A stretch of 64,000 nt of DNA from the NCBI GenBank assembly GCA_040388375.1, contig JAZKBU010000007.1, positions 3,263 through 67,262 of the forward strand, written 5' to 3'. The notes beneath the pieces were generated by a model that searched no databases, was not told where the DNA came from, and was given only the letters and a program-made list of their open reading frames with translations. Below are positions 5,483 to 58,567 of the stretch, piece after piece (position 1 is the first letter of the stretch; every line of letters starts with the position of its first letter). A program made the position numbers and the translations under genes. This DNA comes from Bacteroidota bacterium. Lineage in GTDB: Bacteria > Bacteroidota > Bacteroidia > UKL13-3.

Positions 5483-7855
5483 ATGAAATATTTATTTTAC
5501 GTTTTAATTTGTATTACAAGTAAAGTTGCGTTTGGGCAGTTACTTATTTCAACCAACCAAAATCAATCCTATGCGTTGTATCCGTACACACAGATAGCAG
5601 ATGTTGGACAATCGAAATTTAGTTTAAGAGAGTTTAAGGCCAAAGCCTCCGGTTTGGAGTTTAAACCCGTTATGCATATGAATGCCAATATTGGTTTTAC
5701 AGCTAATTATTACTGGTTAACTTTTAGCGTACAAAACAATACTGATGTTAAAAAAACGTATTATTTAGAAACAGCACGCCCCATTACAGACTATGTACAT
5801 TTATATACGGAGTTTACCAATGGAATGATCAAAAGTCAGGAGAGTGGCGATGCCATGCCTTTTGCTGAACGCGATTACGAACACCGCAAAACCATATTTA
5901 AAATAGAACTACCCGCCAATGAAAAAGTGAACTTTTATTTAAATTTAAAAAGCGATGGCGAGGTTATAAACTTACCTTTAAAATTAAGTACGGCTGATGA
6001 ATTAATTATACAAACCTATAAAGAGCAATTAGTGTATGGCATTTTTTATGGCATATTGTTATTAGCTACCATTACCTATTTGTTTTTTTATTTTGCCCTT
6101 GACGATAAAAGTTTTTTATATTACTGTTTGTACGTAGGTTTTGTTGGCTTACTCCAGTTTGCACTCGATGGGTTTTTTTATCAGTATTTTGGTCCCAATG
6201 CAGGCATACTTTCACTAAAGGCAGTTATTATTTTTGCTGCTTTAAGCACCCTGTTTTTTGTTAAATATACCCAGTGGTTTTTACATGTAAGCGAACATTT
6301 TAAAAGTTTAGACAAAATATATAAAGGGTTGTTTATAGCTATTTTGGTTTTATTTATTGTTTGTGTTTTAGCGCCCCAAATACCTACATTAAGTTATACC
6401 ATTATTAATGCCATGGCTTTGTTGTCGTTGGTTTTAGTTATAGCAACGGTAGTTGTTTCCATTATAAAAAAAGTAAAAGTCGATCCTTTTTTTATAGCAG
6501 GTATTAGTTGTATGGTACTTGGCTTTACCATATTTATACTCAATAATTTTAGCATTATACCCAATTCATTTATTACCGAAAATAGCTCAAAATTAGGAAC
6601 AGGTTTAGAGGTTATATTTTTATCACTTTCCATGTCCAACAGAATCAGGAAACTAAGGAGTGAAAAAGAAATGGCACAGTCTATAGCTTTAAAAAAATCG
6701 GAAGACATGAACGATGTGAAGTCGTATTTTATGAATAACATGAGCCATGAATTGCGGACCCCTTTAAATGCTATAATGGGTATTGCCGATGTAATGTTGA
6801 GCGAAAATATAGACCCTAAAATAAAAGAGAATTTTGAAATTATTAAATATTCATCGCAAGGTTTACTCAGTTCAGTAAACGATATTTTAGACTTTAGCAA
6901 AATAGAAAAAGGCGAATTAAAGTTAGATTATGTAGAGTTTGAACCCGTTCAGTTATTTATTCAGATTAACTACAGTGCCAATAAACAAGCCCTCGATAAA
7001 GGCTTATTATTTACTTATGAAGTAGATGAAAATTTACCATCCTTACTATTGGGCGATAACGTTAGGTTAAGCCAAATAATGAACAATGTAATTAGCAATG
7101 CCATTAAATTTACCAATGTAGGTTGGGTTAATGTACGCGTTAAAATAATAGCCCAATACGATAACGAAATTGTTTTACAAATAGCCATCAGCGATTCAGG
7201 TGTTGGTATTCCTAAAGAAAAAATAGAATCTATTTACGAGTCGTTTAGTCAGGAAAGTATTACTAACAAACGCAAGTTTGGTGGTTTAGGTCTAGGCTTA
7301 TCCATAGTTAAAAAACTAGTTGATTTACAGGGAGGTAAAATTAACATAACAAGCAAAACTGGCCAAGGTACAAATTGTACCATAGAGTTACCCTTTACTA
7401 TAATTACTCAACCGCAAATGATAAACGAACATATACAAAAAGAAGAACCCGTTGAAGACAATGGGGTCAATATTTTACTGGTAGAGGACAACGCCATCAA
7501 TCAATTAATAATGAAAAAAATAATGAATAAATGGGAAAATGTTCGTTATGCCATTGCCAATCATGGCGAAGAAGGATTACAATTATTACAGCAAGACCAT
7601 TTTGATATAGTGCTCATGGATTTGCAAATGCCCATAATGGATGGTTACGAAGCAGCTACGGCCATTAGAGTAGGTACAGCAGGAGTGAGTAATATAGATA
7701 TTCCTATAATAGCCCTTACTGCCGATGTAATGGAGGGAACAAAAGACAGGGTGAAGCAGATAGGTATGGACGAATACATGTCCAAACCCGTTGACCAAAA
7801 TATGTTGTACCAAACCGTTATGCGTTTAATACAACAGAAACAAAATAAAAGCTGA
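5483..7855 (+). CDS. Hybrid sensor histidine kinase/response regulator with 7TMR-DISM extracellular and 7TM domains
   Basis: Signal peptide, 7TMR-DISMED2-like periplasmic domain, seven predicted TM helices, HisKA (MSHELRTPLNAI), HATPase_c (GLGLSIVKKLVDLQGG) and a C-terminal receiver (LLVEDNAINQ...DLQMPIMDG). Confidence 0.85.
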   Translation: MKYLFYVLICITSKVAFGQLLISTNQNQSYALYPYTQIADVGQSKFSLREFKAKASGLEFKPVMHMNANIGFTANYYWLTFSVQNNTDVKKTYYLETARPITDYVHLYTEFTNGMIKSQESGDAMPFAERDYEHRKTIFKIELPANEKVNFYLNLKSDGEVINLPLKLSTADELIIQTYKEQLVYGIFYGILLLATITYLFFYFALDDKSFLYYCLYVGFVGLLQFALDGFFYQYFGPNAGILSLKAVIIFAALSTLFFVKYTQWFLHVSEHFKSLDKIYKGLFIAILVLFIVCVLAPQIPTLSYTIINAMALLSLVLVIATVVVSIIKKVKVDPFFIAGISCMVLGFTIFILNNFSIIPNSFITENSSKLGTGLEVIFLSLSMSNRIRKLRSEKEMAQSIALKKSEDMNDVKSYFMNNMSHELRTPLNAIMGIADVMLSENIDPKIKENFEIIKYSSQGLLSSVNDILDFSKIEKGELKLDYVEFEPVQLFIQINYSANKQALDKGLLFTYEVDENLPSLLLGDNVRLSQIMNNVISNAIKFTNVGWVNVRVKIIAQYDNEIVLQIAISDSGVGIPKEKIESIYESFSQESITNKRKFGGLGLGLSIVKKLVDLQGGKINITSKTGQGTNCTIELPFTIITQPQMINEHIQKEEPVEDNGVNILLVEDNAINQLIMKKIMNKWENVRYAIANHGEEGLQLLQQDHFDIVLMDLQMPIMDGYEAATAIRVGTAGVSNIDIPIIALTADVMEGTKDRVKQIGMDEYMSKPVDQNMLYQTVMRLIQQKQNKS

Positions 7856-10810: not shown

Positions 10811-10898
10811 AAAAGAGTGTTTTCCCTATTTTGTAGAGTAGTTATTACCCTATGAAAAAAGAGTAGTTTTCCTATGCACATAGGGTGTTTTCCCTATT
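10811..10898 (+). repeat. Three copies of the box AAAAGAGTGTTTTCC(C)TAT, plus the palindrome CCTATGCACATAGG, in the upstream region of the 11057 gene
   Basis: Read directly: 10811-10830 aaaagagtgttttccctatt, 10855-10876 aaaaaagagtagttttcctatg, 10881-10898 tagggtgttttccctatt. A fourth copy lies at 24353-24376. Confidence 0.5.
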
Positions 10899-11056
10899 GT
10901 TGTTGACACAAACATTCCGCAAACTTGTACTCCAAAAAATAACTGATTGCACTTATACAAAGTGTAGGCATATTATATTTTGTAAGTATTAACAGTTACG
11001 GACGAAGCTGAAAATCCGCTAGAGAGTAAGCAAAGCAACAACAACAATACATACTC

Positions 11057-14238: not shown

Positions 14239-14275
14239 CTAAGAAACAACCTCTAAACAATCATTCATATATAAT

Positions 14276-14308
14276 CCGTAGCCATTAACTATGTGGCTAC
14301 GGGTTTTG
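14276..14308 (+). terminator. Rho-independent terminator hairpin after the 12703-14238 gene
   Basis: ccgtagcca-ttaactatg-tggctacgg: perfect 9-bp stem followed by gtttt. Confidence 0.5.
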
Positions 14309-14332
14309 AATGATAAATAATTTATCAAAGCT

Positions 14333-14362
14333 AGCACACGCTATAAGCGTGTGCTATTCTTT
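14333..14362 (+). terminator. Perfect 10-bp palindrome AGCACACGCT-ATA-AGCGTGTGCT followed by ATTCTTTT (terminator-like, or an operator)
   Basis: Read directly. A degenerate copy with the same downstream 'GTGTGCTATTCTTTAA' lies at 14578-14610. Confidence 0.4.
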
Positions 14363-14374
14363 TAAATATTTTAG

Positions 14375-14610
14375 TAAATTTAAACACCTAATACAAAAAG
14401 GATGCGAGCGCAGGCCAGACAAAAAAGCGGGCCGCGCATCAAGCCTGTGGGGAGAAGCATTTTTTTGTCTAGCGTTTTTGGATACTTTTTTGGCAATGCA
14501 AAAAGTATCGAAGCAAAAAAAGAGAAGAACATTTATTGCAGGCGGGGACGCCTGCAATGGCTATATAAGATATCTGTGCTAACACACACCTATAGCGTGT
14601 GCTATTCTTT
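14375..14610 (+). ncRNA. Candidate structured RNA: a GC-rich intergenic block bounded by two terminator-like hairpins, containing copy 1 of the 88-nt two-hairpin element
   Basis: Local GC is far above the window average (gcgagcgcaggccagac...gcgggccgcgc...gcggggacgcctgc). Several self-complementary stretches. The small ORFs in the track here overlap on both strands. A -7-like TAAATTTA sequence lies just after the first hairpin. Confidence 0.25.
14475..14561 (+). repeat. 88-nt conserved element, copy 1. Hairpin 1 is gatacttttt/aaaaagtatc; hairpin 2 is ttgcaggcg-GGGA-cgcctgcaa
   Basis: About 85% identical by eye to 24156-24242 in the same orientation. In copy 2 the stem changes that are present keep pairing possible. 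Confidence 0.6.
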
Positions 14611-14646
14611 AATTATTGTAATATTACATTTTAAACAACCTTTAAA

Positions 14647-21033: not shown

Positions 21034-21783
21034 TTATTTGCTCAACCAGTTTTTAAAATCGGCAGAGCGGTCAATACTTACTATTAACTCCTCGGTACTG
21101 GCAGGGGTGGTTTCTATTTTTATACGCCCTTTGGTATAAGCAGTCATTTGTTTAATAGCCTGAATTTTTATAATAAACTGTCGGTTTATACGGAAAAAAT
21201 ATTCAGGGTCTAACATCGTTTCCAGTTTATCTAAAGTATAATCAATCAGGTGGGTAGATTCATCGTTGAGTATTACTTTAACATAACGTCCCTCTGATTG
21301 AAAGTAAGCAATATCATCTATACCAATAGAGCGTATTTTACTGCCTGATGTAACCATAAAACGTTTCTGAAAAGTGTCCTGATTTTTCATTTCATGTAGT
21401 AGCTTATCCAATACTTCTTTCGATACAACTTTTGTATCGTGGTACTTATCCAGTGCATTTTTAAGCTCACTTTTATCAAAGGGTTTCAACAAATAATCAA
21501 TGCTGTTTAGCTTAAAAGCTTTCAGGGCATAGTGGTCGTAAGCGGTAGTAAAAATAATAGGTGCTTTTACCACTACGCTGTCAAAAATACTAAAGCTTAT
21601 ATTGTCTGATAAATAAATGTCAAGGAAAACAATATCGGGTGCCAGGTTATTTTTAAACCAGCTAATGGCTTTGCTTGCTGATGGAATAACCGCCAATACT
21701 TCTATGCTGCTATCTATTTCCTGCAATAGCTTTTGTAAATAGTCAGCCGCTATTTGTTCGTCTTCAATAATCAATACTTTCAT
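21034..21783 (-). CDS. LytTR family two-component response regulator
   Basis: Receiver domain (MKVLIIEDE...DIVFLDI) plus C-terminal LytTR DNA-binding domain. Overlaps the upstream kinase gene by 4 nt. Confidence 0.9.
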   Translation of the reverse strand: MKVLIIEDEQIAADYLQKLLQEIDSSIEVLAVIPSASKAISWFKNNLAPDIVFLDIYLSDNISFSIFDSVVVKAPIIFTTAYDHYALKAFKLNSIDYLLKPFDKSELKNALDKYHDTKVVSKEVLDKLLHEMKNQDTFQKRFMVTSGSKIRSIGIDDIAYFQSEGRYVKVILNDESTHLIDYTLDKLETMLDPEYFFRINRQFIIKIQAIKQMTAYTKGRIKIETTPASTEELIVSIDRSADFKNWLSK

Positions 21784-23609
21784 ATAGTGTGGGCTTGTAT
21801 CAATGGAATAATGACTATGTATTTATTATCGCGGGTTTCAAAACGGGGCGTTTCGTTGTGCAAAATAGCAAATCGGGCCATAATATTTTTTATACCAACG
21901 CCCATGCTGTTTGTTTTGTGCGTACGTATTTGCAGGTTGTTTTCTATAATCAGGTAATGCTGTTGGGTGTATATATTTATTTGTAGAGGATGCTCTTCTT
22001 CTATGGTATTGTGTTTAAGCGCATTTTCTATCAACATTTGTAAACAAAAGGGCGGAATAAATAGCGCCATACTTTCTGCCGCTATGTTTTTATGCAATAA
22101 CAAATTATTGCCAAAACGTATTTTTTGCAAATACATATAATCATCTACCAAGTTTAGCTCCTCTTGTAAGGGTATCAGCGAGTCGCCTTTTTGTGAGAGT
22201 ATGTTGCGGTAAAATTTAGAGAATACGGTTACAAATTCGGCAGCCTTTTTTACATCGGTTTGTATAAGCGAGCTTAAAGCATTTAAGCTGTTGAATAAAA
22301 AGTGTGGACTAATCTGGCTGCGTAGTATTTCGTATTGTGCCATTATGTTTTCGGTTTGTAAGCCTACATTTTCGGTGGTTAGGGTTTGGTTGGTTTTCTT
22401 TTTTAACCGGGTATTTCTATACAGTAAAAACACCAGTAAAAACATAGCCCCAAGCAATATTATAAATATGGTTTTTTGCAATAAGGCTTTGCTCAGTTCG
22501 CTTTCCTTTAACTCGTTGGCGGTTTGTAGCAAAGCCAGCTCTTTGTTTTTACGTTCTACGTTAAACTTGGTTTCTGTTTCGGCCAGTTGGGCTACATGCG
22601 ACTGGTTAATTAACGAATCGTTTAAGGCTATAAACCTGTTTTGCCACGCGTAAGCTTCGGCCGGCTTATGGGTTTGAAAACACAGCTCCCCCATATTGCG
22701 GTAGTAGTTGGAAACTACCGAGCGTGCGCCTATTTGTAAGGCCAATTGGTAGCCGCTGTCCAGGTAGTGTTTGGCTTCCTTATAATTACCTGTGCCTATT
22801 AAAACACTGGCCAGTGTGGTGGCGGTGCTGGCACAGCTTAGTTTGTTATTGGATTTTTTCTGGTATGCAATGGCCTGTTTTAAATAGTCAATGGCTTTGT
22901 CGTTTATGCGTAACTCCGCATAGGCTATACCTATACTGCAGTATAATACAGATTGATTAACAAAAGTGCTGTCCTTGTGGGCAGAAGGAAGCGCTTTTAA
23001 ATACAAGGCAATGGCTTCTTTGTATTTTCCTTCCGAGGTATAAATATTGCCTATATTATTGGCTATGGATACATATTTTTTATAATCGCTGGCTTCTAGT
23101 TTCGATAGTGCTTGTAGGTAAAAACCCAATGCTTTCTTTTTGTTGTTTAAATAAAAATAGTCGTTGCCAATATTAACCAGGGCAGATATATATCCTTTTT
23201 CATATTGAAGCGAATCGTACAGGCGCAAAGCATGTAAATGCAAATCAACGGCCTCGTTGTATAAACCTTCTGTGCGCAGCATATTGGCGTTTAAATCCAT
23301 GGCCATAGCCAAACCCGGAGCGTAATGTATTTGGGTGCTTAGTGTAGTTATTTCGTGTGTTAAAACTTTACCCGCTTCTCTGTCAGATAAAACAACGCCA
23401 AAGGCCAAATCGCGCAGCGCTTTTACCTTGTTGCTGTCGTTAGGCATGTGCTTAATAGCCTTTTGCAGGCTATCTATATTGTGGTTTTGCGCATGTATGG
23501 GGTTGCTAAAACAGACCCAAACAATGGTTAGTATCCATAAGGCTTTAAACATATGGCAACTTAAATATTTCAGCGCTAAAAAAGTATTATGCTGTGCTGA
23601 AAGTGTCAT
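21780..23609 (-). CDS. Sensor histidine kinase, LytS/YehU type (His_kinase domain), with periplasmic TPR repeats
   Basis: Signal or TM segment, TPR-like repeats, one TM (IFIILLGAMFLLVFLLY), then 'SPHFLFNSLNALSSLI' His_kinase motif and an ATPase domain. The internal Met about 20 codons in (MFKALWILTIVWVCF) may be the true start. Confidence 0.8.
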   Translation of the reverse strand: MTLSAQHNTFLALKYLSCHMFKALWILTIVWVCFSNPIHAQNHNIDSLQKAIKHMPNDSNKVKALRDLAFGVVLSDREAGKVLTHEITTLSTQIHYAPGLAMAMDLNANMLRTEGLYNEAVDLHLHALRLYDSLQYEKGYISALVNIGNDYFYLNNKKKALGFYLQALSKLEASDYKKYVSIANNIGNIYTSEGKYKEAIALYLKALPSAHKDSTFVNQSVLYCSIGIAYAELRINDKAIDYLKQAIAYQKKSNNKLSCASTATTLASVLIGTGNYKEAKHYLDSGYQLALQIGARSVVSNYYRNMGELCFQTHKPAEAYAWQNRFIALNDSLINQSHVAQLAETETKFNVERKNKELALLQTANELKESELSKALLQKTIFIILLGAMFLLVFLLYRNTRLKKKTNQTLTTENVGLQTENIMAQYEILRSQISPHFLFNSLNALSSLIQTDVKKAAEFVTVFSKFYRNILSQKGDSLIPLQEELNLVDDYMYLQKIRFGNNLLLHKNIAAESMALFIPPFCLQMLIENALKHNTIEEEHPLQINIYTQQHYLIIENNLQIRTHKTNSMGVGIKNIMARFAILHNETPRFETRDNKYIVIIPLIQAHTI

Positions 23610-23747
23610 TTATTGACATGAAGGAGCAGTATACTATTTTAAAAATGACACATTTAAACGGTATGAAAAAGGGCTTAGTAGTTTACGAGTTAATAAGAGA
23701 TGGGTTGATTGGCTGCCTACTTAAAACCCGGACAGTATGAAAAAAAT

Positions 23748-24052
23748 GTTTTTGGTACATTCCTGAAACTGGGACTATATAAAAAATATATTTTTATTAC
23801 GTTCCTCAAATTCGGAATGTATATAAAATAAATTTTTACTACGTTCCTGAAACTAGGACTGTATATAAAATATATTTTTATTATGTTCCTGAAACTCGGA
23901 ATATATATAAAATAAATTTTTACTACGTTCCTGAAATGAGGAATGCATATAAAATAAATTTTTATTATGTTCCTGAAATGAGGACTGTATATAAAATAAA
24001 TTTTTACTATGTTCCTAAAACTAGGACTATGTGTAAAATAAATTTTTAGTAC
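23748..24052 (+). repeat. Tandem array of seven 42-bp direct repeats (plus a degenerate eighth), consensus TTTTTAYTAYGTTCCTGAAAYNRGGAMTRTATATAAAATAAA
   Basis: The GTTCCT core recurs at 23759, 23801, 23843, 23885, 23927, 23969 and 24011, exactly 42 bp apart. Units alternate between two subtypes (ATTAY...CGGAAT and ACTAC...AGGACT). No unique spacers. Confidence 0.9.
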
Positions 24053-24155
24053 TTATTTATAACTAACATATCATATAAAAAGCAGAAATACCTTCAGCGT
24101 GCGTACAGAAGTATTTTGCCCTTATTGTGTCTTCAGACCAATAAGTAGCCTGGCA

Positions 24156-24242
24156 TTTTTGGATACTATTTTGCTCATGCAAAAAGTATTGAAGCAAGAA
24201 AAGGGAAGAATATTAATTGCATGCGGGGACGCCTGCAATGGC
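24156..24242 (+). repeat. 88-nt conserved two-hairpin element, copy 2
   Basis: Aligns with 14475-14561: ...tttttggatact..tttg...atgcaaaaagtatYgaagcaaRaaaRgRgaagaaYattWattgcaKgcggggacgcctgcaatggc. Confidence 0.6.
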
Positions 24243-24352
24243 GTAATTACAATCCGTAAAGTGCTTCGTTAACTATATGAACTGTAAGATATAAAAATGT
24301 AATCCTACCTATATACCAATATTTATATTTTTTCGTTTTACATATTAGTTTT

Positions 24353-24376
24353 AAAAAAAAGAGTGTTTTTCCTACT
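24353..24376 (+). repeat. Fourth copy of the AAAAGAGTGTTTTTCC box
   Basis: aaaaaaaagagtgtttttcctac, followed by a partial second copy aaaaaagggtattt. Confidence 0.45.
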
Positions 24377-24672
24377 AAAAAAGGGTATTTATACTATTGG
24401 ATAGTAATAAATACATATTTACTATTGCAGTCAATATATATATAAGTAATATAACAAATATAGATAAAAAGCCCATAGGTGCGCTAACACCTACAGGCCA
24501 TGTAAATAAATAAAACGTTGTCCTATGCTGATAAAACTACATCCTATTTAGCTACGAAAGTAGCCAAATAACAAAACATAGCAATACTGATTTGCTGATA
24601 CACTAAAAATGCCATAACCCCAAGGCTAGCTTTAAATAGTGAGGTAAATAACAAACTATTAAACAAACAATA

Positions 24673-25167
24673 ATGAAACGAATAATAATTATAATGACTA
24701 CTCTTGTACTTGTTGCCTGTAGTCGTGAAAAACAACAGGAAAGTGCTTTACCCTTTAAAAAAGCTATTCCTAATCTTACCTCGACAAATACAAAAAAAGA
24801 CCCTAAACCTACTTCTGGTAAAAATGCAAAAATGATAAAAACCAATAAATGTGATGCAACAGTGACTACAAACTGTACACTGATGAATAAAGGCACACGG
24901 GAAGCTCCCAGAAAGTATGATGAGTTGGTGGATATGCTTAAACTGGCGCCTGCAAATGGTAATCATTATGTGAGCGATTTATTTAACTCAAGTGATTTTG
25001 AAGAAATTTCGGAACAACTTGACTCCATAGATTTGGTTAAATTGCAAAGTGATACTTACTATTTAAATATTAATTATGAAGCTGACGATGTAGTAGTTTT
25101 TATGGCAGGACCTACTAACCCAGTTAGTACGGAGAATATGGACTTTGGATTTCAATTACCTAAATAA
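24673..25167 (+). CDS. Hypothetical lipoprotein (164 aa)
   Basis: Signal peptide with lipobox LVLVAC-S. Lys/Thr-rich linker, then a globular C-terminus. Confidence 0.55.
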   Translation: MKRIIIIMTTLVLVACSREKQQESALPFKKAIPNLTSTNTKKDPKPTSGKNAKMIKTNKCDATVTTNCTLMNKGTREAPRKYDELVDMLKLAPANGNHYVSDLFNSSDFEEISEQLDSIDLVKLQSDTYYLNINYEADDVVVFMAGPTNPVSTENMDFGFQLPK

Positions 25168-25176
25168 TACACTTAC

Positions 25177-26277
25177 ATGTTATCAATTAAAAATATAGCT
25201 TTTGTATTCCTGGCAATTTGTTTTTTTACAAGTTGCCGGGAAAAGGTAAATGGAAATACTTACAATGCTGACGAGTTCATTACGGACTCTTTTACCATAA
25301 ACATTAACGATTTTAACAGCGTTTGCCAGTTTATCAATTTTACCAATGCCCAAACTATTAACTCATTTGACCCGGTAAAAAATGAAATTGAAACCTATCA
25401 ATTAAAGGGTAATACCTTTGTGCTTGATAGTACTCAAAACATACGGGTGAATCAGCGGGTGGATTTTTACTTTTTTACGCCTTTGCAAGGCAAATACTAT
25501 TTAACGGATGCGGAGAACAATTGGACCATTGTAGACGCTGCTACTAAACAATCGCAGTTTTATAAACGAACCGCTACTATTCCGTTTATTGAACAAGAGT
25601 ATCGCTTGGGTTATAACAGACAAACTCCCCTTATTAAACAGGGTAATGTATTATACTGCCAATATACAAGCCCTGCCGGGACAGCCCAAATAGATGAACA
25701 TATTATGGCTTCGTTTACGCCTCAAAATGGTGTTATTGATAACATCAGTAATTATTTGGATAAGCCTAAGGCTTTATATAATTATGTAGAAAGACTGCAT
25801 ATGTATTGCGTAAAGGATAGTATTGTATCACTTCTGTTTCCTTGTTTTGATACGCTGTATAGGTTAAACATAACCACAGGTATGGTTACCAAGAAGGTAC
25901 TCCAAAACAAAAACTTTTGTTTACCTGTACAAACGCAATTAAATGTTGATGATCCCAATTATTTTAGTGCTTTGAGTAAATATACTTATGCTAATTTCAG
26001 GTACTACGGTATTCAATACAACCCTGCTACCGGGCATTACGTAGCCTATTATAAATTACCTGTAAAACATGTAAAGGATAGAAATATAGTTGATACAGAC
26101 CAACCGCTACAAGCCATTGTAATGGATAGTGATTATAATATTCTTAACTATGTATTGTTTAAACCTGTTTATGATGACCCTTTTTGTTTTGCAGTGCATC
26201 CCACAAAAGGTATAGCCATTCCTTTACTTAAAGAGCCTAAAACCAATGCTAAGAATTTTTATTATTTTAATTTTTAG
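25177..26277 (+). CDS. Hypothetical lipoprotein (366 aa)
   Basis: Lipobox FFTSC-R. Rich in Tyr, Asn and Thr. Size and composition are compatible with a beta-propeller-type Bacteroidota lipoprotein, but the family is not assigned. Confidence 0.6.
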   Translation: MLSIKNIAFVFLAICFFTSCREKVNGNTYNADEFITDSFTININDFNSVCQFINFTNAQTINSFDPVKNEIETYQLKGNTFVLDSTQNIRVNQRVDFYFFTPLQGKYYLTDAENNWTIVDAATKQSQFYKRTATIPFIEQEYRLGYNRQTPLIKQGNVLYCQYTSPAGTAQIDEHIMASFTPQNGVIDNISNYLDKPKALYNYVERLHMYCVKDSIVSLLFPCFDTLYRLNITTGMVTKKVLQNKNFCLPVQTQLNVDDPNYFSALSKYTYANFRYYGIQYNPATGHYVAYYKLPVKHVKDRNIVDTDQPLQAIVMDSDYNILNYVLFKPVYDDPFCFAVHPTKGIAIPLLKEPKTNAKNFYYFNF

Positions 26278-26656
26278 TTGCTTGCTTGGGTGTAAACAAG
26301 TCAACTACACTACCAATAAGGAGTTTTTTAGCTATGCGGCTATGTGGGGTATAAAACCGGAAACGGATACGCAATTGTATGCGCTTTTTCCGGCTAACCA
26401 ATGTACCAAATGTTTTACGATACACAATACCAACCCAGCTTTAACCCATCAAGTTACCATTATACATGCTTTGAATAAGGAAATGTTTAGTGGTTTTCAA
26501 TCTATGTATTACGACAGTACAAATACGCTGCAAACCCTGCAACTGGTTAATTATGCCAATACTTTTGTAGTGGTTAAAAACAAAAACATAGTAGCCATTA
26601 GCCCTATTACCGACTTTTTCCCCCAAGCGGATAGTTTACTGGCAGTATACCCGTAA
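26246..26656 (+). CDS. Hypothetical small lipoprotein (136 aa)
   Basis: Lipobox CLLGC-K. Overlaps the preceding gene by 32 nt. Confidence 0.5.
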   Translation: MLRIFIILIFSCLLGCKQVNYTTNKEFFSYAAMWGIKPETDTQLYALFPANQCTKCFTIHNTNPALTHQVTIIHALNKEMFSGFQSMYYDSTNTLQTLQLVNYANTFVVVKNKNIVAISPITDFFPQADSLLAVYP

Positions 26657-26803
26657 TAGCGTACCATAATCAGTTAATTTAAATAAACACCAAGTATAAA
26701 AAATAGATTTCTCCTTTATTAACAACCCAATAATAAATACCCAAAGTTTGTAAATGGTATTAAAATAAATATTTTTGGCTTTACTAAAACTAAAAATTTA
26801 TTT

Positions 26804-55183: not shown

Positions 55184-58100
55184 ATGACAAATATTAATAC
55201 TGAATTATCCCTATTTGATAAGGCCTTAAAGGAGACATTATTTAGTAGTTTTGAACATCCATTTGTAATCATTAATGAATATTACGAAATACAGAGTATA
55301 CACGGAAATATAGAGTTGTTTTTACCCCCTACCTATTACAACAATAATTTATTAGAAATAGTTAATAGTAGTTTACAAACAGAAGTAAGCTCCATTACTT
55401 CACGCGCTATCAAAGAGCAAAAAGATACTAAAAGCGCTATTAAAAAAATAAACATAACAGGTAGTACTTATTATATACAATTATCAGTTAAAGTTTTATT
55501 GTTAAATGGCGTCAAGACAAAATTATTTATGGTAATTTTTGAAGAGGTTTTTTTTGATGATTTAGAACTTGACACCGTTAAGAACTCATTAGATTTAATC
55601 GTTAATCCACATTCAGTAGCCGAAAGACATATTACCGAAGAAAAATACAAAGCGTTTATTGAAAACTCAATGAGTGCCTTTTTATTGACCAAACCTGATG
55701 GAACAATTTTAGAAGTAAATAATGCGGCTATTGAAATATTTGGCTATTCAGAAGAAGAGCTTAAACAAAATGCCTGTCAAAATATAATTGACCATGACGA
55801 CCCACAGTTTTCAAAATTACTGGAAGCCCAATTTAAAAAAGGAAGAATAAAAGGAGAAGCCATTGGCATTAGAAAAAACGGAGAATATTTTCCTGTGGAG
55901 TTTTCTTCAGTTGTATTCAAAGATTTTGTTACAGGTGAAGATAGAATTAGTAAAGTAATAACAGATATTTCTGAAATTAGAAAAACAGAAAGAATGTTGG
56001 AAGAAAGTAGTAAAGTGGGGAGGATAGGGGGATGGGAATTGGATTTGTTCCACAATACACTTTATTGGAGTGAGGTAACAAAAGAAATTCATGAAGTACC
56101 TAGTGATTTTGTTCCCAATTTAGAAACAGCAGTCAATTTTTATAAAGAAGGATATAATAGAAAAACGATTAATAGGTTATTGAAAGAGGCCGTAGACAAA
56201 GGCTCTTCTTTTGATATTGAATTGAAAATTGTTACCATTAAGCAAAGAGAATGTTGGATTAGGGTAAAAGGAGAAGCGGAATTTAGAAATGGAAAGTGTT
56301 CCCGTTTATTTGGAATTTTTCAGGATATAGATAAACAAAAAATAATACAAGAGAAATTAGAAATTAGCCAGCAAGAATACAAATCACTATACGAACAGAA
56401 TCCGGCAGCCGTTTTTTCCGTTAATTTAGAGGGTGAGTTTATTAGCGCTAATGATGTTTTTGCACAAAAAGCAGATTGTACCAAAGAAGAAATTTTAAAT
56501 AGTAATTTCAATAAATTTATCCATCAGGATGATTTAGCCCGTGTAAGTACCTATTTTGATGATGCTAAAAAGGGCGCGGTTAGCGAAGCTGAAATAAGGA
56601 TAATCAATGCGAAGCAAAAAGAAATACTCATAGCCTTAATAGTTTTACCTATTATAGTTAACAATAAAATTACGGGAGTATATGGAATTGCTAACGATAT
56701 AACGGCTGATAAATTAATTCGTCAATCTATTGAAAAAGCTAAAAACGATTTAACTAAAATTATGTCCGCTTCTCAGGATATTATTTGCACCATTGATAGA
56801 GAAGGGAAATTTGTTTTATTAAATAAAGCGGCAGAACATATACTTGGTTTTCCAATTGATTATTTAAAAGGAAAATCATACAACGAGTTTGTTTATGAGG
56901 CTGATATAGCAGACACTGAAAAATCAATGTTTTTGATTATGAATGGTCAGTTGGCTTCTAATTTCGAAAACAGGTATATCAGGATAGACGGAACAATGGT
57001 TCCATTATCGTGGTCAGCCAGATGGGACTCAACTGACCAGTTAATGTATTGTGTTGCACGTGATGTAACCCAAAAGAAAAAGGCCGAGGAGGAAATAATA
57101 AAAAGCAACGAGCGCTTTGAATATGTTACACAAGCTACGTTTGATGCCATTTGGGATTGGGACATAGTGAATGATTTAATATATTGGGGAAGTGGTTTTA
57201 AAACATTATTCGGTTATTCCAATATCAATGAATTTGTAAAAGGAAATGAGTGGAAGAACAGAATTTACAAAGACGATATAAAAAATGTAATACAATCATT
57301 AGATACTTTTTTACAAGGAAGAGAGTTAAACTGGACCTATGAATATAAGTATTTAAAAGCCGATGGAACTTATGCTTACGTATTAGATAAAGCCATTGCA
57401 GTGAGAGATGCAGCAGGTAATGCCATTCGTATGATTGGTGCTATGCAGGATTTAACCAAACAAAAACAAGAAGAGCATAGGCTTAAATTATTAGAATCAG
57501 TAATTATTAATGCCAAAGACGGTGTAATAATACTAGAGGACGAATTCAGTGCAAATGCAAGTAAAAAAATTATATATGTAAATGATGCACTTTGTAAAAT
57601 AACTGGCTATTCAAAAGAAGAACTGATAGGATGTAGTCCCAACATATTTCAGGGTTTTAATACCGATAAAAAAGAAATAGAGCGTGTAAAAAAAGCAATG
57701 AATGATTGGCAACCAGTAGAAGCCGAAGTAATTAATTATAGAAAAAATGGTGAAGAGTTCTGGATGAATTTCTCCATTGTACCTATAGCAAATGAAACAG
57801 GTAAATATACACATTGGATTGCAATAGAAAGAGATGTAACAGCAAGGAAAACATCAGAGGAAGAGAAAGAACATTTACTAAAAGAGTTAACCCAAAATAA
57901 CAAAGAACTTAAACAGTTTTCTTATATTACTTCCCATAACATGAGGGCTCCATTAACCAATTTATTGGCTATTTTCGATATTTTAGATTTATCTAAAATT
58001 ACAGATATGGAGACAAAAGTTTTATTAGATGCTATGAAAACATCAACGTATCACTTAAATGAAACTTTAAATGATTTGATAAAAATCCTCATTATAAAAG

Positions 58101-58567
58101 AAAATACAAACCAGGATGTAGAGGAAATATATTTTAGTGATTCAGTACGGGCAGTAACCAAATCAATAGATTCACTATTGAAAAATGCCAAAGCAAGTAT
58201 AAAAAGTAACTTTAGTAAAGCAGAAAAAGTAAACTTTAACAAGAGTTATTTAGAAAGTATATTTTTAAATTTAATTACCAATTCAATTAAATATGCTCAC
58301 CCGGATAGAAGGACCCAAATGAGCATTACTACCACTACTATCAATAATACCATAGAACTTGTTTTTACAGACAACGGATTAGGCTTTGATAATGAAAAAG
58401 TGAAGGGTAAAATTTTTGGATTGTATCAAAAATTCCATAGCCATCCCGACAGTAAAGGGATTGGTTTATATTTGGTATATTCGCAGGTGACTTCTTTGGG
58501 CGGGAATATTAAAGTAAGCAGTAAAGAAAATGAAGGCACCACTTTTACAATAACATTTTTAAATTAA
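55184..58567 (+). CDS. Multi-PAS/PAC sensor histidine kinase (paralog 1)
   Basis: At least five PAS/PAC modules, then a HisKA-like 'ELKQFSYITSHNMRAPLTNLLAIF' and a HATPase_c (DNGLGFDNEKVKGKIFGLYQKFHSHPDSKGIGLYLV). Confidence 0.85.
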   Translation: MTNINTELSLFDKALKETLFSSFEHPFVIINEYYEIQSIHGNIELFLPPTYYNNNLLEIVNSSLQTEVSSITSRAIKEQKDTKSAIKKINITGSTYYIQLSVKVLLLNGVKTKLFMVIFEEVFFDDLELDTVKNSLDLIVNPHSVAERHITEEKYKAFIENSMSAFLLTKPDGTILEVNNAAIEIFGYSEEELKQNACQNIIDHDDPQFSKLLEAQFKKGRIKGEAIGIRKNGEYFPVEFSSVVFKDFVTGEDRISKVITDISEIRKTERMLEESSKVGRIGGWELDLFHNTLYWSEVTKEIHEVPSDFVPNLETAVNFYKEGYNRKTINRLLKEAVDKGSSFDIELKIVTIKQRECWIRVKGEAEFRNGKCSRLFGIFQDIDKQKIIQEKLEISQQEYKSLYEQNPAAVFSVNLEGEFISANDVFAQKADCTKEEILNSNFNKFIHQDDLARVSTYFDDAKKGAVSEAEIRIINAKQKEILIALIVLPIIVNNKITGVYGIANDITADKLIRQSIEKAKNDLTKIMSASQDIICTIDREGKFVLLNKAAEHILGFPIDYLKGKSYNEFVYEADIADTEKSMFLIMNGQLASNFENRYIRIDGTMVPLSWSARWDSTDQLMYCVARDVTQKKKAEEEIIKSNERFEYVTQATFDAIWDWDIVNDLIYWGSGFKTLFGYSNINEFVKGNEWKNRIYKDDIKNVIQSLDTFLQGRELNWTYEYKYLKADGTYAYVLDKAIAVRDAAGNAIRMIGAMQDLTKQKQEEHRLKLLESVIINAKDGVIILEDEFSANASKKIIYVNDALCKITGYSKEELIGCSPNIFQGFNTDKKEIERVKKAMNDWQPVEAEVINYRKNGEEFWMNFSIVPIANETGKYTHWIAIERDVTARKTSEEEKEHLLKELTQNNKELKQFSYITSHNMRAPLTNLLAIFDILDLSKITDMETKVLLDAMKTSTYHLNETLNDLIKILIIKENTNQDVEEIYFSDSVRAVTKSIDSLLKNAKASIKSNFSKAEKVNFNKSYLESIFLNLITNSIKYAHPDRRTQMSITTTTINNTIELVFTDNGLGFDNEKVKGKIFGLYQKFHSHPDSKGIGLYLVYSQVTSLGGNIKVSSKENEGTTFTITFLN

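What the first reader, a model, noticed from the sequence alone, without database searches (positions are those of the whole stretch)
23610..24672. Longest non-coding stretch of the window (1,063 bp) stacks three unexplained elements
The gene-dense window has no ORF of 60 aa or more between the kinase start (23609) and the lipoprotein gene (24673). The exceptions are two minus-strand ORFs that overlap the lipoprotein start, which I take to be spurious. Within this gap lie:
- the 42-bp tandem array (23748-24052)
- copy 2 of the 88-nt two-hairpin element (24156-24242)
- a copy of the AAAAGAGTGTTTTTCC box (24353)
- a GNRA-type mini-hairpin gctac-GAAA-gtagc (about 24556)

This density of conserved non-coding elements suggests an sRNA locus, a complex regulatory region, or the scar or boundary of an acquired segment.
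Basis: partly seen in the sequence, partly recalled or inferred. Interest (0 to 1): 0.6.

Follow-up and report, generated by a model that had tools for sequence, protein, structure and literature searches.

The report
Patchwork intergenic region: repeats plus regulatory sites
The long gene-free stretch is a fast-changing patchwork: a conserved promoter of a two-component system, a strain-specific block of repetitive DNA, and the control region of an accessory three-gene lipoprotein cassette, so it is mostly ordinary but gives testable regulatory leads.

Summary
They do not form one locus. Four related genomes each show a different arrangement at this site.

- **Conserved in all (23553-23709):** the kinase promoter, plus two 9-bp direct repeats with a 12-bp spacer. 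That is the classical geometry of LytTR response-regulator sites, and it is kept in orthologues of only 46-53% identity.
- **Segment A (~23710-24309):** present only in the window and its 99% relative. It holds the 42-bp array, which varies in copy number (7 units here, 8 there). It also holds a degenerate ~175-nt copy of a dispersed, modular hairpin repeat; the "88-nt element" is its 3' half. This family is multi-copy in a Saprospiraceae clade. Its 28-nt hairpin core recurs in other genera, twice in ICE-like DNA. In four loci a tandem array with a period of 21, 42 or 82 bp lies just 5' of such a repeat.
- **Segment B (~24310-26722):** present only in the window and a 91% relative. It is an orphan three-gene lipoprotein cassette with its own control region. 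The "box" is half of a 22-bp direct-repeat pair next to a promoter-like site. The pair recurs at three other loci, one beside a paralogous kinase/LytTR operon. The "GNRA hairpin" belongs to a minus-strand hairpin-plus-terminator RNA.

Verdict: a composite of known kinds; moderate interest.

The parts
23553..23709 (-). Conserved upstream region of the TPR-His_kinase/LytTR operon. It has a -7-like box TAAGTTGC (23563->23556) ending 3 nt before the ATG at 23552. It also has two 9-bp direct repeats with a 12-bp spacer. In the kinase sense these read TGCTCCTTC-12-GACACTTTC. On the plus strand they are GAAAGTGTC at 23599-23607 and GAAGGAGCA at 23620-23628.
   Evidence: The region aligns in all relatives L001-L005. 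The 9+12+9 repeat pair and the -7 box are kept in orthologues of 46-53% identity (L046, L047, L048) whose intergenic DNA is otherwise unalignable. The geometry matches published LytTR sites (PMC6193735, PMC2766830).
23707..24084 (.). 42-bp tandem array (copy-number-variable minisatellite). It has 7 good units (23749-24052) plus one degenerate unit on each side. The unit is TTTTTAYTAYGTTCCTGAAAYNNGGAMTRYATATAAAATAWA.
   Evidence: TRF scores are 373-446, and the units are listed in register. L001, whose kinase is 99% identical, has 8 good units. The array is absent in L003/L004 and L005. No array turned up in the metagenome scan (29 single chance hits), in plasmids or in phages.
24085..24242 (+). 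Degenerate copy of a dispersed mosaic hairpin repeat, made of five modules. (1) Own 5' hairpin, ~24085-24117. (2) Hairpin 'X', 24121-24145 (CUUAUUG...CAAUAAG). (3) Hairpin 1, 24162-24189 (GATACTATTTTGCTCATGCAAAAAGTAT). (4) Purine-rich tract, 24190-24210. (5) Hairpin 2, 24216-24242 (ATTGCATGCGGGGACGCCTGCAATGGC).
   Evidence: It is 87% identical to 14469-14561, and the modules were mapped by blastn-short. At least 15 full or partial copies occur in L001, L003 and L006-L014. The hairpins fold, with compensatory changes between copies. Copy 2 folds weakly as a whole (z -2.0 on plus, -0.5 on minus) compared with copy 1 (z -3.7 and -4.9). No Rfam family matches.
24243..24309 (.). Junction DNA between segment A and segment B. 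Part of it (~24283-24305) resembles the ancestral linker seen in L003 and L005.
   Evidence: Alignments.
24310..24327 (.). Left copy of an imperfect direct repeat (TATATACCAATATTTATA) flanking segment B. The right copy, CAACCCAATAATAAATA, is at ~26723-26739. L001, which lacks B, has a single copy.
   Evidence: Read directly from the alignments. This is a weak, AT-rich match.
24357..24400 (+). Pair of 22-bp direct repeats: AAAAGAGTGTTTTTCCTACTAA then AAAAGGGTATTTATACTATTGG. This is a putative response-regulator or activator binding site next to a promoter.
   Evidence: The strict pattern AAAGRGTR-N13-15-AAAGRGTR occurs once in the window, against 0.01 expected. It is conserved in L003/L004 (93% identity). 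It recurs independently at L006, L009 and, four-fold, at window 10811-10900, each time pointing at a downstream gene start. In L006 it lies between a paralogous TPR-kinase/LytTR operon and a divergent lipoprotein gene.
24397..24427 (+). Promoter-like site: TTG (24397-24399), then 20 nt, then TACTATTG (24420-24427). The latter has one mismatch to the Bacteroidota -7 motif TAnnTTTG.
   Evidence: Motif scan. L006 has the same layout: TTG at the end of unit 2, then 21 nt, then TAATTTTG, then the lipoprotein ATG. The transcription start site is inferred, not shown.
24462..24615 (-). Candidate minus-strand structured RNA of about 150 nt. It has four parts. (1) First hairpin, 24615-24578. (2) A 12-bp hairpin, 24571-24544; this is the 'GNRA' hairpin, whose loop reads UUUC on this strand. 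(3) Hairpin, 24544-24513. (4) An intrinsic terminator, 24499-24470, followed by UUUUUAUC.
   Evidence: The terminator scan finds it on the minus strand only. The minus-strand fold is -45.1 kcal/mol (z -4.0), against -27.5 (z -2.45) for the plus strand. All 5 substitutions and 1 indel between the window and L003 inside the hairpins keep minus-strand pairing, via G-U, while the plus strand has C-A mismatches. 24401-24571 is 90-95% identical to L003, against 86.5% for the lipoprotein gene. No convincing promoter was found.
24673..26656 (+). Accessory three-gene cassette, the coding part of segment B: a 164-aa lipoprotein, a 366-aa lipoprotein and a 136-aa protein.
   Evidence: Substitutions are biased to third codon positions in the plus frames. 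There are no Pfam, NCBIfam or PADLOC hits. The 366-aa protein has only 2 homologues among 5.8 billion proteins, and gene order is kept in L044/L045. The cassette is absent from L001 and L005.
14396..14612 (+). Full-length copy 1 of the mosaic repeat (5' GC-rich module, hairpin 1, purine tract, hairpin 2), followed by a terminator-like hairpin. It serves as the reference for the gap copy.
   Evidence: In L001 a 1.6-kb two-gene insertion sits inside this site, with hairpin 1 on both sides.
10811..10900 (+). Four tandem ~22-bp units of the same box motif, upstream of the 543-aa gene at 11057.

Best explanation
The gap is a hypervariable divergent intergenic region made of three pieces with separate histories. 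It is not one functional locus.

**Piece 1 (23553-23709, conserved).** This is the promoter of the TPR-histidine-kinase/LytTR response-regulator operon. Just upstream of its promoter boxes lie two 9-bp direct repeats with a 12-bp spacer. I infer that the phosphorylated LytTR regulator binds here as a dimer and autoregulates the operon.

**Piece 2 (segment A, ~23710-24309).** This is repeat-derived filler gained in the window/L001 lineage. It consists of a 42-bp minisatellite that changes copy number, most likely by slippage or unequal exchange. Next to it lies a decaying copy of a dispersed, modular, hairpin-forming repeat of the BOX/BIME/REP kind. I infer this piece is selfish or neutral DNA. 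Its main effect would be to push the two flanking control regions about 600 bp apart, in steps of 42 bp (four helical turns).

**Piece 3 (24310-24672).** This is the native control region of an accessory three-gene lipoprotein cassette.
- A pair of 22-bp direct repeats sits against a promoter-like TTG/-7 site. It resembles the kinase-promoter repeats (AAAG.G core, AAAGGGTA unit). I infer it is an activator site, most likely for the adjacent LytTR regulator, making the cassette a target of the two-component system.
- The resulting long 5' leader would be opposed by a minus-strand structured RNA that ends at an intrinsic terminator at ~24462. That RNA would act as a cis-antisense RNA or a transcriptional insulator.

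**Shown:** the presence/absence mosaic, repeat family membership, copy-number variation, motif recurrence and strand-specific structure conservation.

**Inferred:** protein binding, promoter use and transcription.
For: **Mosaic structure.** blastn and alignments against four relatives give four configurations.

**LytTR geometry at the kinase promoter.** 9 bp + 12 bp + 9 bp is kept in six orthologous loci, down to 46% kinase identity. This matches published LytTR sites located just upstream of -35 (PMC6193735; PMC2766830). The adjacent gene encodes a Response_reg+LytTR protein. It is the only one found among the 29 window ORFs scanned against Pfam.

**Box pair.**
- 1 occurrence in the window against 0.01 expected.
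- Orthologue conserved.
- Three further independent loci, all oriented toward a gene start.
- One of them lies beside a paralogous TPR-kinase/LytTR operon with the same divergent lipoprotein layout.

**Variable-number array.** 7 units here against 8 in L001, absent from L003 and L005, and no array found in the metagenome contigs or in plasmid and phage records.

**Dispersed repeat.**
- At least 15 full or partial copies across the fetched loci, with modules shuffled, duplicated or loop-inverted.
- Hairpins kept by compensatory changes.
- No Rfam match.

**Minus-strand RNA.**
Against: - No expression or binding data exist for any part.
- The box pair is inverted relative to its presumed promoter, compared with the kinase-promoter repeats. 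Its unit 1 differs from the kinase repeat by a 1-nt indel, and its period is 22 rather than 21 bp (notes).
- Two box loci (L009, window 10811) have no LytTR gene next to them in the stretch examined, so a different regulator may bind.
- The -7-like box at 24420 has a mismatch, and it lies 245 nt from the ATG.
- No clear promoter for the minus-strand RNA was found, and the best -33 candidate is lost in L003.
- The structure-conservation argument rests on only two sequences and six changes, roughly p~0.03.
- A tandem array lies 5' of the mosaic repeat in four independent loci. This argues that the array may be part of the repeat element rather than incidental slippage.
Confidence: 0.6

Rival explanations
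1. The 88-nt (really ~175-nt) hairpin element is a functional RNA gene or cis-regulatory leader. Transcribed on the plus strand, it would control the downstream lipoprotein cassette. On this reading the gap is primarily an sRNA or leader locus.
For: Copies usually lie in the same orientation as flanking genes. Several lie 100-190 nt upstream of an ATG. Stems show compensatory substitutions and an optional inserted hairpin, as structured RNAs do. Copy 1 is followed by a terminator-like hairpin before the next gene. The 28-nt hairpin 1 pattern matches exactly across genera, and up to about 40 nt is identical in two of the three distant loci.
Against: - Copies also occur downstream of genes and opposite to both neighbours (L008, L010).
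- Modules are shuffled, duplicated in tandem, truncated and loop-inverted. That is typical of DNA-level mosaic repeats.
- The gap copy is degenerate: hairpin 2 is weakened (-11.7 against -19 kcal/mol), the whole-element z is only -2.0, and the 5' module is replaced.
- The copy is absent from L003, which keeps the cassette and its control region intact.
- No Rfam family matches.
Confidence: 0.12
2. The 42-bp array is a functional protein-binding array. It could be a sopC-like centromere or iteron set, or a phased array of regulator sites that titrates or loops the adjacent LytTR regulator. On this reading it is not neutral minisatellite DNA.
For: Each unit carries a short inverted repeat, TTCC-N8-GGAA(C). 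The period is 42 bp, which is 2 x 21 bp or four helical turns. Arrays with periods of 21, 42 and 82-84 bp lie next to the same repeat family in four loci. The 21-bp units of L006 and L009 contain a TACCTTTC-like 9-mer resembling the kinase-promoter repeat (notes). The F-plasmid sopC analogy (43-bp repeats, each with an inverted repeat) is from my own knowledge.
Against: - The array is absent from L003 and L005, which keep the same operon.
- No partition or replication genes were seen among the 29 window ORFs scanned against Pfam.
- There is no similarity to plasmids or phages.
- The 42-bp unit does not fit the direct-repeat consensus, because the invariant C at position 5 is replaced (notes).
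- The most variable positions lie inside the putative site.
- Copy number differs between 99%-related strains, as expected for a neutral variable-number repeat.
Confidence: 0.12
3. The minus-strand double hairpin and terminator (24571-24462) does not belong to an sRNA. It would be a relic or insulator terminator carried in with the cassette. It would stop stray antisense transcription from running into the box promoter and the kinase operon.
For: The same architecture, a hairpin followed by a terminator, occurs as an ordinary gene-end signal at 14275-14368 and gives a comparable weak Rfam trpB score (26 against 31 bits). No good minus-strand promoter was found.
Against: No minus-strand gene ends here. 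The overlapping minus ORFs show no coding signal. A relic would not be expected to keep strand-specific pairing through six changes, or to be better conserved than the neighbouring coding gene.
Confidence: 0.3
4. The whole gap is decaying junk or a pseudogenised region with no residual function.
For: Segment A is dispensable in close relatives, and its repeat copy is degenerate. No ORF of 60 aa or more lies in the gap.
Against: 23553-23709 is conserved in all relatives, with a motif pair kept at 46% protein identity. 24357-24571 is 90-95% conserved, with a recurrent motif and structure-preserving changes.
Confidence: 0.07

Closest known systems
LytTR-family response-regulator operators (AgrA, ComE, PlnC, HdrR/BrsR type): two 9-bp direct repeats with a 12-bp spacer just upstream of the -35
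   Same: The kinase-promoter repeats have exactly 9+12+9 geometry. They sit immediately upstream of the promoter boxes of an operon encoding a LytTR regulator, and they are conserved across orthologues. The box pair has the same head-to-tail layout, a 22-bp period and a related core.
   Different: The sequence (TACCCTTTC / TTCACTTTC) differs from the published consensus ACCNCTTAN. The promoter is of the Bacteroidota -33/-7 type. The box pair is inverted relative to its presumed promoter and has a 13-bp spacer. Binding is untested.
Pneumococcal BOX elements (boxA-boxB(n)-boxC) and enterobacterial BIME/REP mosaic repeats
   Same: Both are short, intergenic, multi-copy, modular repeats with strong hairpin potential. 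Both have variable numbers of tandem sub-units, occur in either orientation, and probably affect co-transcribed genes. BOX elements are interpreted as parasitic (PMC3049150).
   Different: The sequences are unrelated and the phylum is different (Saprospiraceae, Bacteroidota). The tandem arrays next to the repeat differ in sequence between loci, unlike the shared boxB. No RAYT or other mobilising enzyme has been identified. The hairpin core also occurs in ICE-like DNA of other genera.
Bacterial variable-number tandem repeats (minisatellites) in promoter regions
   Same: Head-to-tail 42-bp units, higher-order 84/126-bp periodicity, and a copy-number difference between 99%-related strains.
   Different: No phase-variable gene is obviously linked. 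The unit carries a small inverted repeat, and the period is a whole number of helical turns.
Cis-antisense sRNAs and intrinsic terminators opposite a 5' leader
   Same: A GC-rich stem followed by a U-run, preceded by further hairpins, encoded opposite the presumed 5' leader of the cassette.
   Different: No promoter or transcript has been shown. The weak Rfam trpB-motif hit (31 bits against a gathering score of 59) is generic.

Membership tests
LytTR response-regulator binding site | Two ~9-bp imperfect direct repeats separated by 11-13 bp | tested here: met
   The kinase promoter has 9+12+9 in six orthologous loci (notes). The box pair has a 22-bp start-to-start spacing, i.e. a 13-bp spacer.
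LytTR response-regulator binding site | Located just upstream of the promoter's upstream hexamer, in a fixed orientation | tested here: inconclusive
   The kinase-promoter repeats end 16 nt before the -7 box in L047 and lie similarly elsewhere. The box pair sits against a TTG/-7-like site, but in the opposite orientation. No transcription start sites are known.
LytTR response-regulator binding site | A LytTR-domain regulator is encoded nearby | tested here: met
   Window 21034-21783 encodes Response_reg+LytTR. L006 3935-4651 does as well. The L009 and window 10811 box loci have none adjacent in the stretch examined.
LytTR response-regulator binding site | The regulator binds the repeats and activates transcription | not testable with these tools
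   Needs EMSA, DAP-seq or reporter assays.
Interspersed mosaic repeats (BOX/BIME/REP-like) | Many dispersed copies, essentially intergenic | tested here: met
   The window has 2 copies. The fetched parts of GCA_964442045.1 give 7 exact-pattern hits and more partial copies. L001 has 3. All lie between genes.
Interspersed mosaic repeats (BOX/BIME/REP-like) | Modular build, with modules varying in number, order or orientation | tested here: met
   The 5' module has two variants and an optional inserted hairpin. Hairpin 1 is duplicated in L009 and L010. Hairpin 2 occurs in 0-2 copies and with an inverted loop.
Interspersed mosaic repeats (BOX/BIME/REP-like) | Stable hairpins maintained between copies | tested here: met
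   Folds and compensatory changes in hairpin X and the long A/U stem.
Interspersed mosaic repeats (BOX/BIME/REP-like) | An associated mobilising enzyme (e.g. a RAYT for REPs), or demonstrated insertion polymorphism with clean ends | tested here: inconclusive
   Presence/absence polymorphism is seen, but the junctions are not clean. Whole genomes could not be scanned for Y1 transposases.
Variable-number tandem repeat | Head-to-tail repeat with copy number differing between close strains | tested here: met
   7 good units in the window against 8 in L001.
Rfam trpB ncRNA motif (RF04312) | Score at or above the family's gathering threshold | tested here: not met
   31 bits against a threshold of 59, E=0.067. 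An ordinary double terminator at 14275-14368 scores 26 bits.
Intrinsic-terminator-ended sRNA | GC-rich stem-loop followed by a U-run on the transcribed strand | tested here: met
   Minus strand 24499-24470 has 13 pairs followed by TTTTTATC. Pairing is strand-specific and conserved.
Intrinsic-terminator-ended sRNA | Own promoter and a discrete transcript | tested here: inconclusive
   Only a weak -7-like TAGCCTTG at 24628 was found, with a -33 candidate 23 nt away that is lost in L003. Transcription cannot be tested here.
GNRA-tetraloop hairpin | A GNRA loop on the strand that is the functional RNA | tested here: inconclusive
   The GAAA loop exists on the plus strand. Substitutions and wobble pairs favour the minus strand, where the loop is UUUC.
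Plasmid centromere or iteron array (sopC-like) | Cognate partition or replication genes nearby; plasmid or ICE context | tested here: not met
   No such domains among the 29 window ORFs scanned against Pfam. No plasmid or phage similarity.

The most novel reading that the evidence does not exclude
The tandem array and the hairpin repeat may together form one previously undescribed composite element of Saprospiraceae: a phased array with a period of 21, 42 or 82-84 bp joined to a ~190-nt structured module. Its 28-nt hairpin core matches exactly across genera and travels on ICE-like DNA. The core would be the recognition site of an unknown HUH-type or other recombinase, or of an RNA-binding protein, and the arrays would be generated or carried at its 5' boundary. 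A variant of this reading is that the 21-bp arrays are amplified LytTR-type operator sites acting as regulator sponges.
Probability: 0.2. Interest if true: 0.55.

Novelty: new member of a known kind. Interest (0 to 1): 0.35.

Why it matters
The analysis gives a concrete, testable regulon hypothesis for an uncharacterised TPR-kinase/LytTR two-component system in uncultured Saprospiraceae. The hypothesis names the operator motif, autoregulation and an accessory lipoprotein cassette as the target.

It documents an undescribed family of modular hairpin repeats with attached phased tandem arrays in Bacteroidota. These are useful for annotation, strain typing and explaining assembly breaks.

It also shows how a 'dense stack of conserved non-coding elements' can be an illusion created by independent insertions at one hotspot.

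None of this overturns current understanding.

Tried and rejected
- **Rfam, whole window at gathering thresholds:** nothing.
- **Rfam, permissive scans of the gap, copy 1 and six related loci:** only generic or chance hits, including a sub-threshold trpB motif.
- **tRNA/tmRNA scan:** none.
- **Coding potential of the gap:**
  - No ORF of 60 aa or more lies inside it.
  - The two minus ORFs over the lipoprotein start lack codon-position bias, whereas the plus genes have it.
  - A 33-aa hydrophobic minus ORF stays open in L003 but carries non-conservative changes, so I rejected it as coding.
- **42-bp unit elsewhere:**
  - Metagenome-contig scan: 29 single chance hits, none extending beyond the 20-mer.
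  - Other loci: found only in L001.
- **Whole gap against plasmids and phages:** no match.
- **Hairpin 1 in viral contigs:** none.
- **Exact-protein look-ups for the window's kinase and lipoprotein:** not on record.
- **NCBIfam and PADLOC on the cassette proteins:** nothing.
- **Fitting the 42-bp unit to the LytTR-like repeat consensus or to the box motif:** poor fit, rejected (notes).
- **RNAalifold on a mixed alignment of repeat copies:** recovered only the invariant hairpin 1, with no covariation. The set is too heterogeneous for a formal covariation test.
- **MITE with terminal inverted repeats:** the ends of the ~200-nt L011/L012 element are not inverted repeats.
- **Simple deletion of segment B in L001 between the flanking direct repeats:** the DNA left of the repeat does not align, so this is unresolved.
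Full report
**Setting**

The window is chromosomal DNA of an uncultured Bacteroidota bacterium, likely Saprospiraceae. It encodes T9SS sorting tails. Its closest relative is MAG GCA_040384145.1, with a 99% identical kinase. DNA pattern hits fall in Saprospiraceae and Aureispira MAGs.

- Left of the gap, on the minus strand, lies an operon for a TPR-containing His_kinase (PF06580) and a Response_reg+LytTR regulator.
- Right of the gap, on the plus strand, lie a 164-aa lipoprotein, a 366-aa lipoprotein and a 136-aa protein with no family assignment.
- After those come DUF898 and an M48 peptidase.

**Checking the observation**

Every listed element is present.

- **Gap.** It is the longest ORF-free stretch in the window: 1,063 bp at a 100-aa cut-off and 927 bp at 60 aa. 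Relatives annotate a 590-aa kinase, so the true start is probably the ATG at 23552 and the gap about 1,120 bp.
- **Array.** TRF finds the 42-bp array at 23749-24052, with 7.2 copies. Printed in register, it has 7 good units plus a degenerate unit on each side.
- **Two-hairpin element.** 24150-24242 is 87% identical to 14469-14561.
- **Box.** It sits at 24357-24372, with 3 matches in the window against 0.12 expected.
- **Mini-hairpin.** The stem extends to 12 pairs over 24544-24571.

**Comparative anatomy: the key result**

I fetched the orthologous locus from four relatives via kinase homologues and compared the DNA.

| Locus | Kinase identity | Segment A (array + repeat) | Segment B (cassette + upstream) |
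|---|---|---|---|
| Window | - | present | present |
| L001 | 99% | present (window 23300-24249 aligns) | absent (24250-26723 missing) |
| L003/L004 | 91% | absent (23708-24309 missing) | present (24310-26700 aligns) |
| L005 | 89% | absent | absent |

- In L005 the kinase and DUF898 genes are separated by only 272 bp.
- Only 23553-23709 and the DUF898 promoter region (from ~26724) are common to all.
- The gap is therefore the junction of two independently variable segments, A (~23710-24309) and B (~24310-26722), at an insertion/deletion hotspot.
- The order of gains and losses is unresolved.
- B is flanked by a weak AT-rich direct repeat that is single-copy in L001.

**The conserved kinase-proximal piece**

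Alignment with more distant orthologous operons (L046, L047, L048; kinase identity 46-53%) shows two conserved features in DNA that is otherwise unalignable.

- A -7-like box TAAGTTGC lies almost against the start codon.
- In the kinase sense, there are two 9-bp direct repeats with a 12-bp spacer:
  - TACCCTTTC-12-TTTACTTTC in L003 and L005
  - TGCTCCTTC-12-GACACTTTC in the window
  - similar pairs in L046-L048

This is the published geometry of LytTR-regulator operators, which sit just upstream of the promoter and mediate positive autoregulation (PMC6193735; PMC2766830). Binding itself is inferred.

**The box**

Searching all loci shows that the box is one unit of a ~22-bp head-to-tail repeat, consensus AAAAGRGTRKTTTWYMCTAYTG.

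- The strict pair pattern occurs once in the window, against 0.01 expected.
- It is conserved in L003.
- It recurs independently at L006, at L009 and, four-fold, at window 10811-10900. Each time it points toward a gene start.
- In L006 it lies between a paralogous TPR-kinase/LytTR operon and a divergent lipoprotein gene. The TTG at the end of unit 2 is followed after 21 nt by a canonical TAATTTTG and then the ATG.
- The window has the same layout: TTG, then 20 nt, then TACTATTG at 24420.
- Unit 2 (AAAGGGTA) is the reverse complement of the kinase-promoter repeat TACCCTTT.

The pair is therefore a strong candidate activator site, plausibly for the adjacent LytTR regulator.

Caveats:
- It is inverted relative to its presumed promoter.
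- It has a 13-bp spacer.
- Two of the other loci have no LytTR gene alongside in the stretch examined.

**The minus-strand structure**

- The terminator scan places the GC-rich stem at 24499-24470, followed by a T-run, on the minus strand, preceded by the 12-bp hairpin.
- Folding 24455-24615 gives -45.1 kcal/mol (z -4.0) on the minus strand and -27.5 (z -2.45) on the plus strand.
- Between the window and L003, the five substitutions and one indel inside these hairpins all preserve minus-strand pairing. Examples are U-G to C-G, G-C to G-U, and G-U to A-U. The plus strand carries C-A mismatches in both genomes.
- 24401-24571 is 90-95% identical to L003, whereas the lipoprotein gene is 86.5% identical.
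- The plus-strand genes are real, showing third-position bias. The overlapping minus ORFs are not.

I read this as a ~150-nt minus-strand RNA, or at least a maintained minus-strand terminator, opposite the presumed cassette leader. No convincing promoter was found. The Rfam trpB hit is generic, because an ordinary double terminator at 14275-14368 scores similarly.

**The 88-nt element**

Aligning all copies shows a longer modular repeat of about 190 nt. Its modules are:

1. A GC-rich 5' module, in two variants, with an optional inserted hairpin.
2. An invariant hairpin 1, GATACTTTTTTGGCAATGCAAAAAGTATC.
3. A purine-rich tract.
4. Zero to two copies of hairpin 2.

Other properties:

- One genome-collection scan for hairpin 1 gave 9 loci. 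Seven hits are in GCA_964442045.1, which is mislabelled Bifidobacterium. The others are in two Saprospiraceae MAGs and an Aureispira MAG.
- In two of those distant genomes the hairpin sits in a different ~200-nt unit inside ICE-like DNA, with RteC, PcfJ, an excisionase-type HTH and a nearby tRNA.
- Stems are maintained by compensatory changes. Hairpin X reads CUUAUUG/CAAUAAG in the window and GUUGUUG/CAACAAC elsewhere. The long A/U stem is compensated in L009.
- Copies occur upstream of genes, downstream of genes and antisense to them. Modules are shuffled and truncated.
- The gap copy is degenerate and is dispensable in L003.
- There is no Rfam match and no viral hit.

This fits interspersed mosaic repeats such as pneumococcal BOX elements (PMC3049150) or BIME/REP elements. 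It does not fit a dedicated sRNA gene.

In L001 a two-gene insertion sits inside the copy-1 site with hairpin 1 on both sides. The repeats therefore mark, or mediate, cassette turnover.

**The array**

- The 42-bp unit occurs only here and in L001, with 7 and 8 good units respectively.
- It is not found as an array in the metagenome contigs, and the gap has no match in plasmids or phages.
- It behaves as a variable-number minisatellite.
- TRF on all loci shows that four of the five distinct arrays found lie within about 110 nt of the 5' end of a mosaic repeat:
  - window, period 42
  - L009, period 21, 16 copies
  - L006, period 21, 7 copies
  - L003, period 82, 3.4 copies
- By my rough estimate this is far more often than chance would give, so the arrays may belong to the repeat element. 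This is the least explained feature and the basis of the novel reading.

**Verdict**

The gap is a composite: one conserved promoter/operator, one block of lineage-specific repetitive DNA, and the control region of an orphan accessory cassette. The 366-aa protein has only two homologues among 5.8 billion proteins.

- Novelty: new members of known kinds.
- Interest: moderate to low (0.35). It rests mainly on the testable LytTR regulon hypothesis and on the undescribed array-plus-hairpin repeat family.

Noticed in passing
window 10811-10900: Four tandem ~22-bp units of the same box motif (AAAAGAGTGTTTTCCCTA...) lie upstream of an uncharacterised 543-aa gene (11057) and a 511-aa gene. This may be a second target of the same regulator.
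   Followed up: partly
L001 19698-21600 (site of window 14396-14612): The 99%-related strain carries a 1.6-kb insertion (a 479-aa TonB_C protein and a 74-aa protein) inside mosaic-repeat copy 1, with hairpin 1 present on both sides. This looks like cassette turnover at the repeat.
   Followed up: partly
L009 6240-6588; L006 1320-1471; L003 899-1177: Tandem arrays with periods of 21 (16 copies), 21 (7 copies) and 82 (3.4 copies) lie immediately 5' of mosaic repeats. The 21-bp units contain a TACCTTTC-like 9-mer resembling the LytTR-type repeat of the kinase promoters.
   Followed up: partly
L011 ~6440-6780 (minus strand) and L012 3699-3897: A different ~200-nt element, 86% identical between a Saprospiraceae MAG and an Aureispira MAG, ends in the same hairpin 1. 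It lies in ICE-like DNA (RteC, PcfJ, HTH_17), with the same tRNA 3-4 kb away.
   Followed up: partly
window 23550-23563: The kinase -7-like box TAAGTTGC ends 3 nt before the ATG, which suggests a leaderless or near-leaderless mRNA. The arrangement is conserved in L046 and L048.
   Followed up: no
window 24375-24476 (minus strand): A 33-aa, very hydrophobic ORF starts inside the 3' arm of the minus-strand terminator. It stays open in L003 (34 aa) but with M->K and T->V changes, so it is probably not coding.
   Followed up: yes
L003, L006, L008-L010, L013, L014 (GCA_964442045.1, CAYTWI01): The assembly is titled 'uncultured Bifidobacterium sp.', yet it is syntenic with this Bacteroidota window and encodes T9SS sorting domains. 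This is an apparent taxonomic mislabel.
   Followed up: no
L005 12646-13656; L046 121-1320 and 4158-5195; L047 8658-9686; L048 4543-5754: Orthologous TPR-kinase/LytTR operons are regularly flanked by a gene for a Por_Secre_tail (T9SS-secreted) protein. This may be the conserved target of this two-component system.
   Followed up: no
window 55184-58567 and 59186-63007: Two adjacent multi-PAS histidine-kinase genes share 72-80% identical DNA blocks offset by 4,440 bp and 3,600 bp. They are tandem paralogues.
   Followed up: no
window 14275-14368 and 14580-14610: The hairpin TAGCACACGC-TATA-GCGTGTGCTA followed by TTCTTT occurs twice, 248 bp apart. One copy follows the 511-aa gene and the other follows mosaic-repeat copy 1, so it is a duplicated terminator module.
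   Followed up: no
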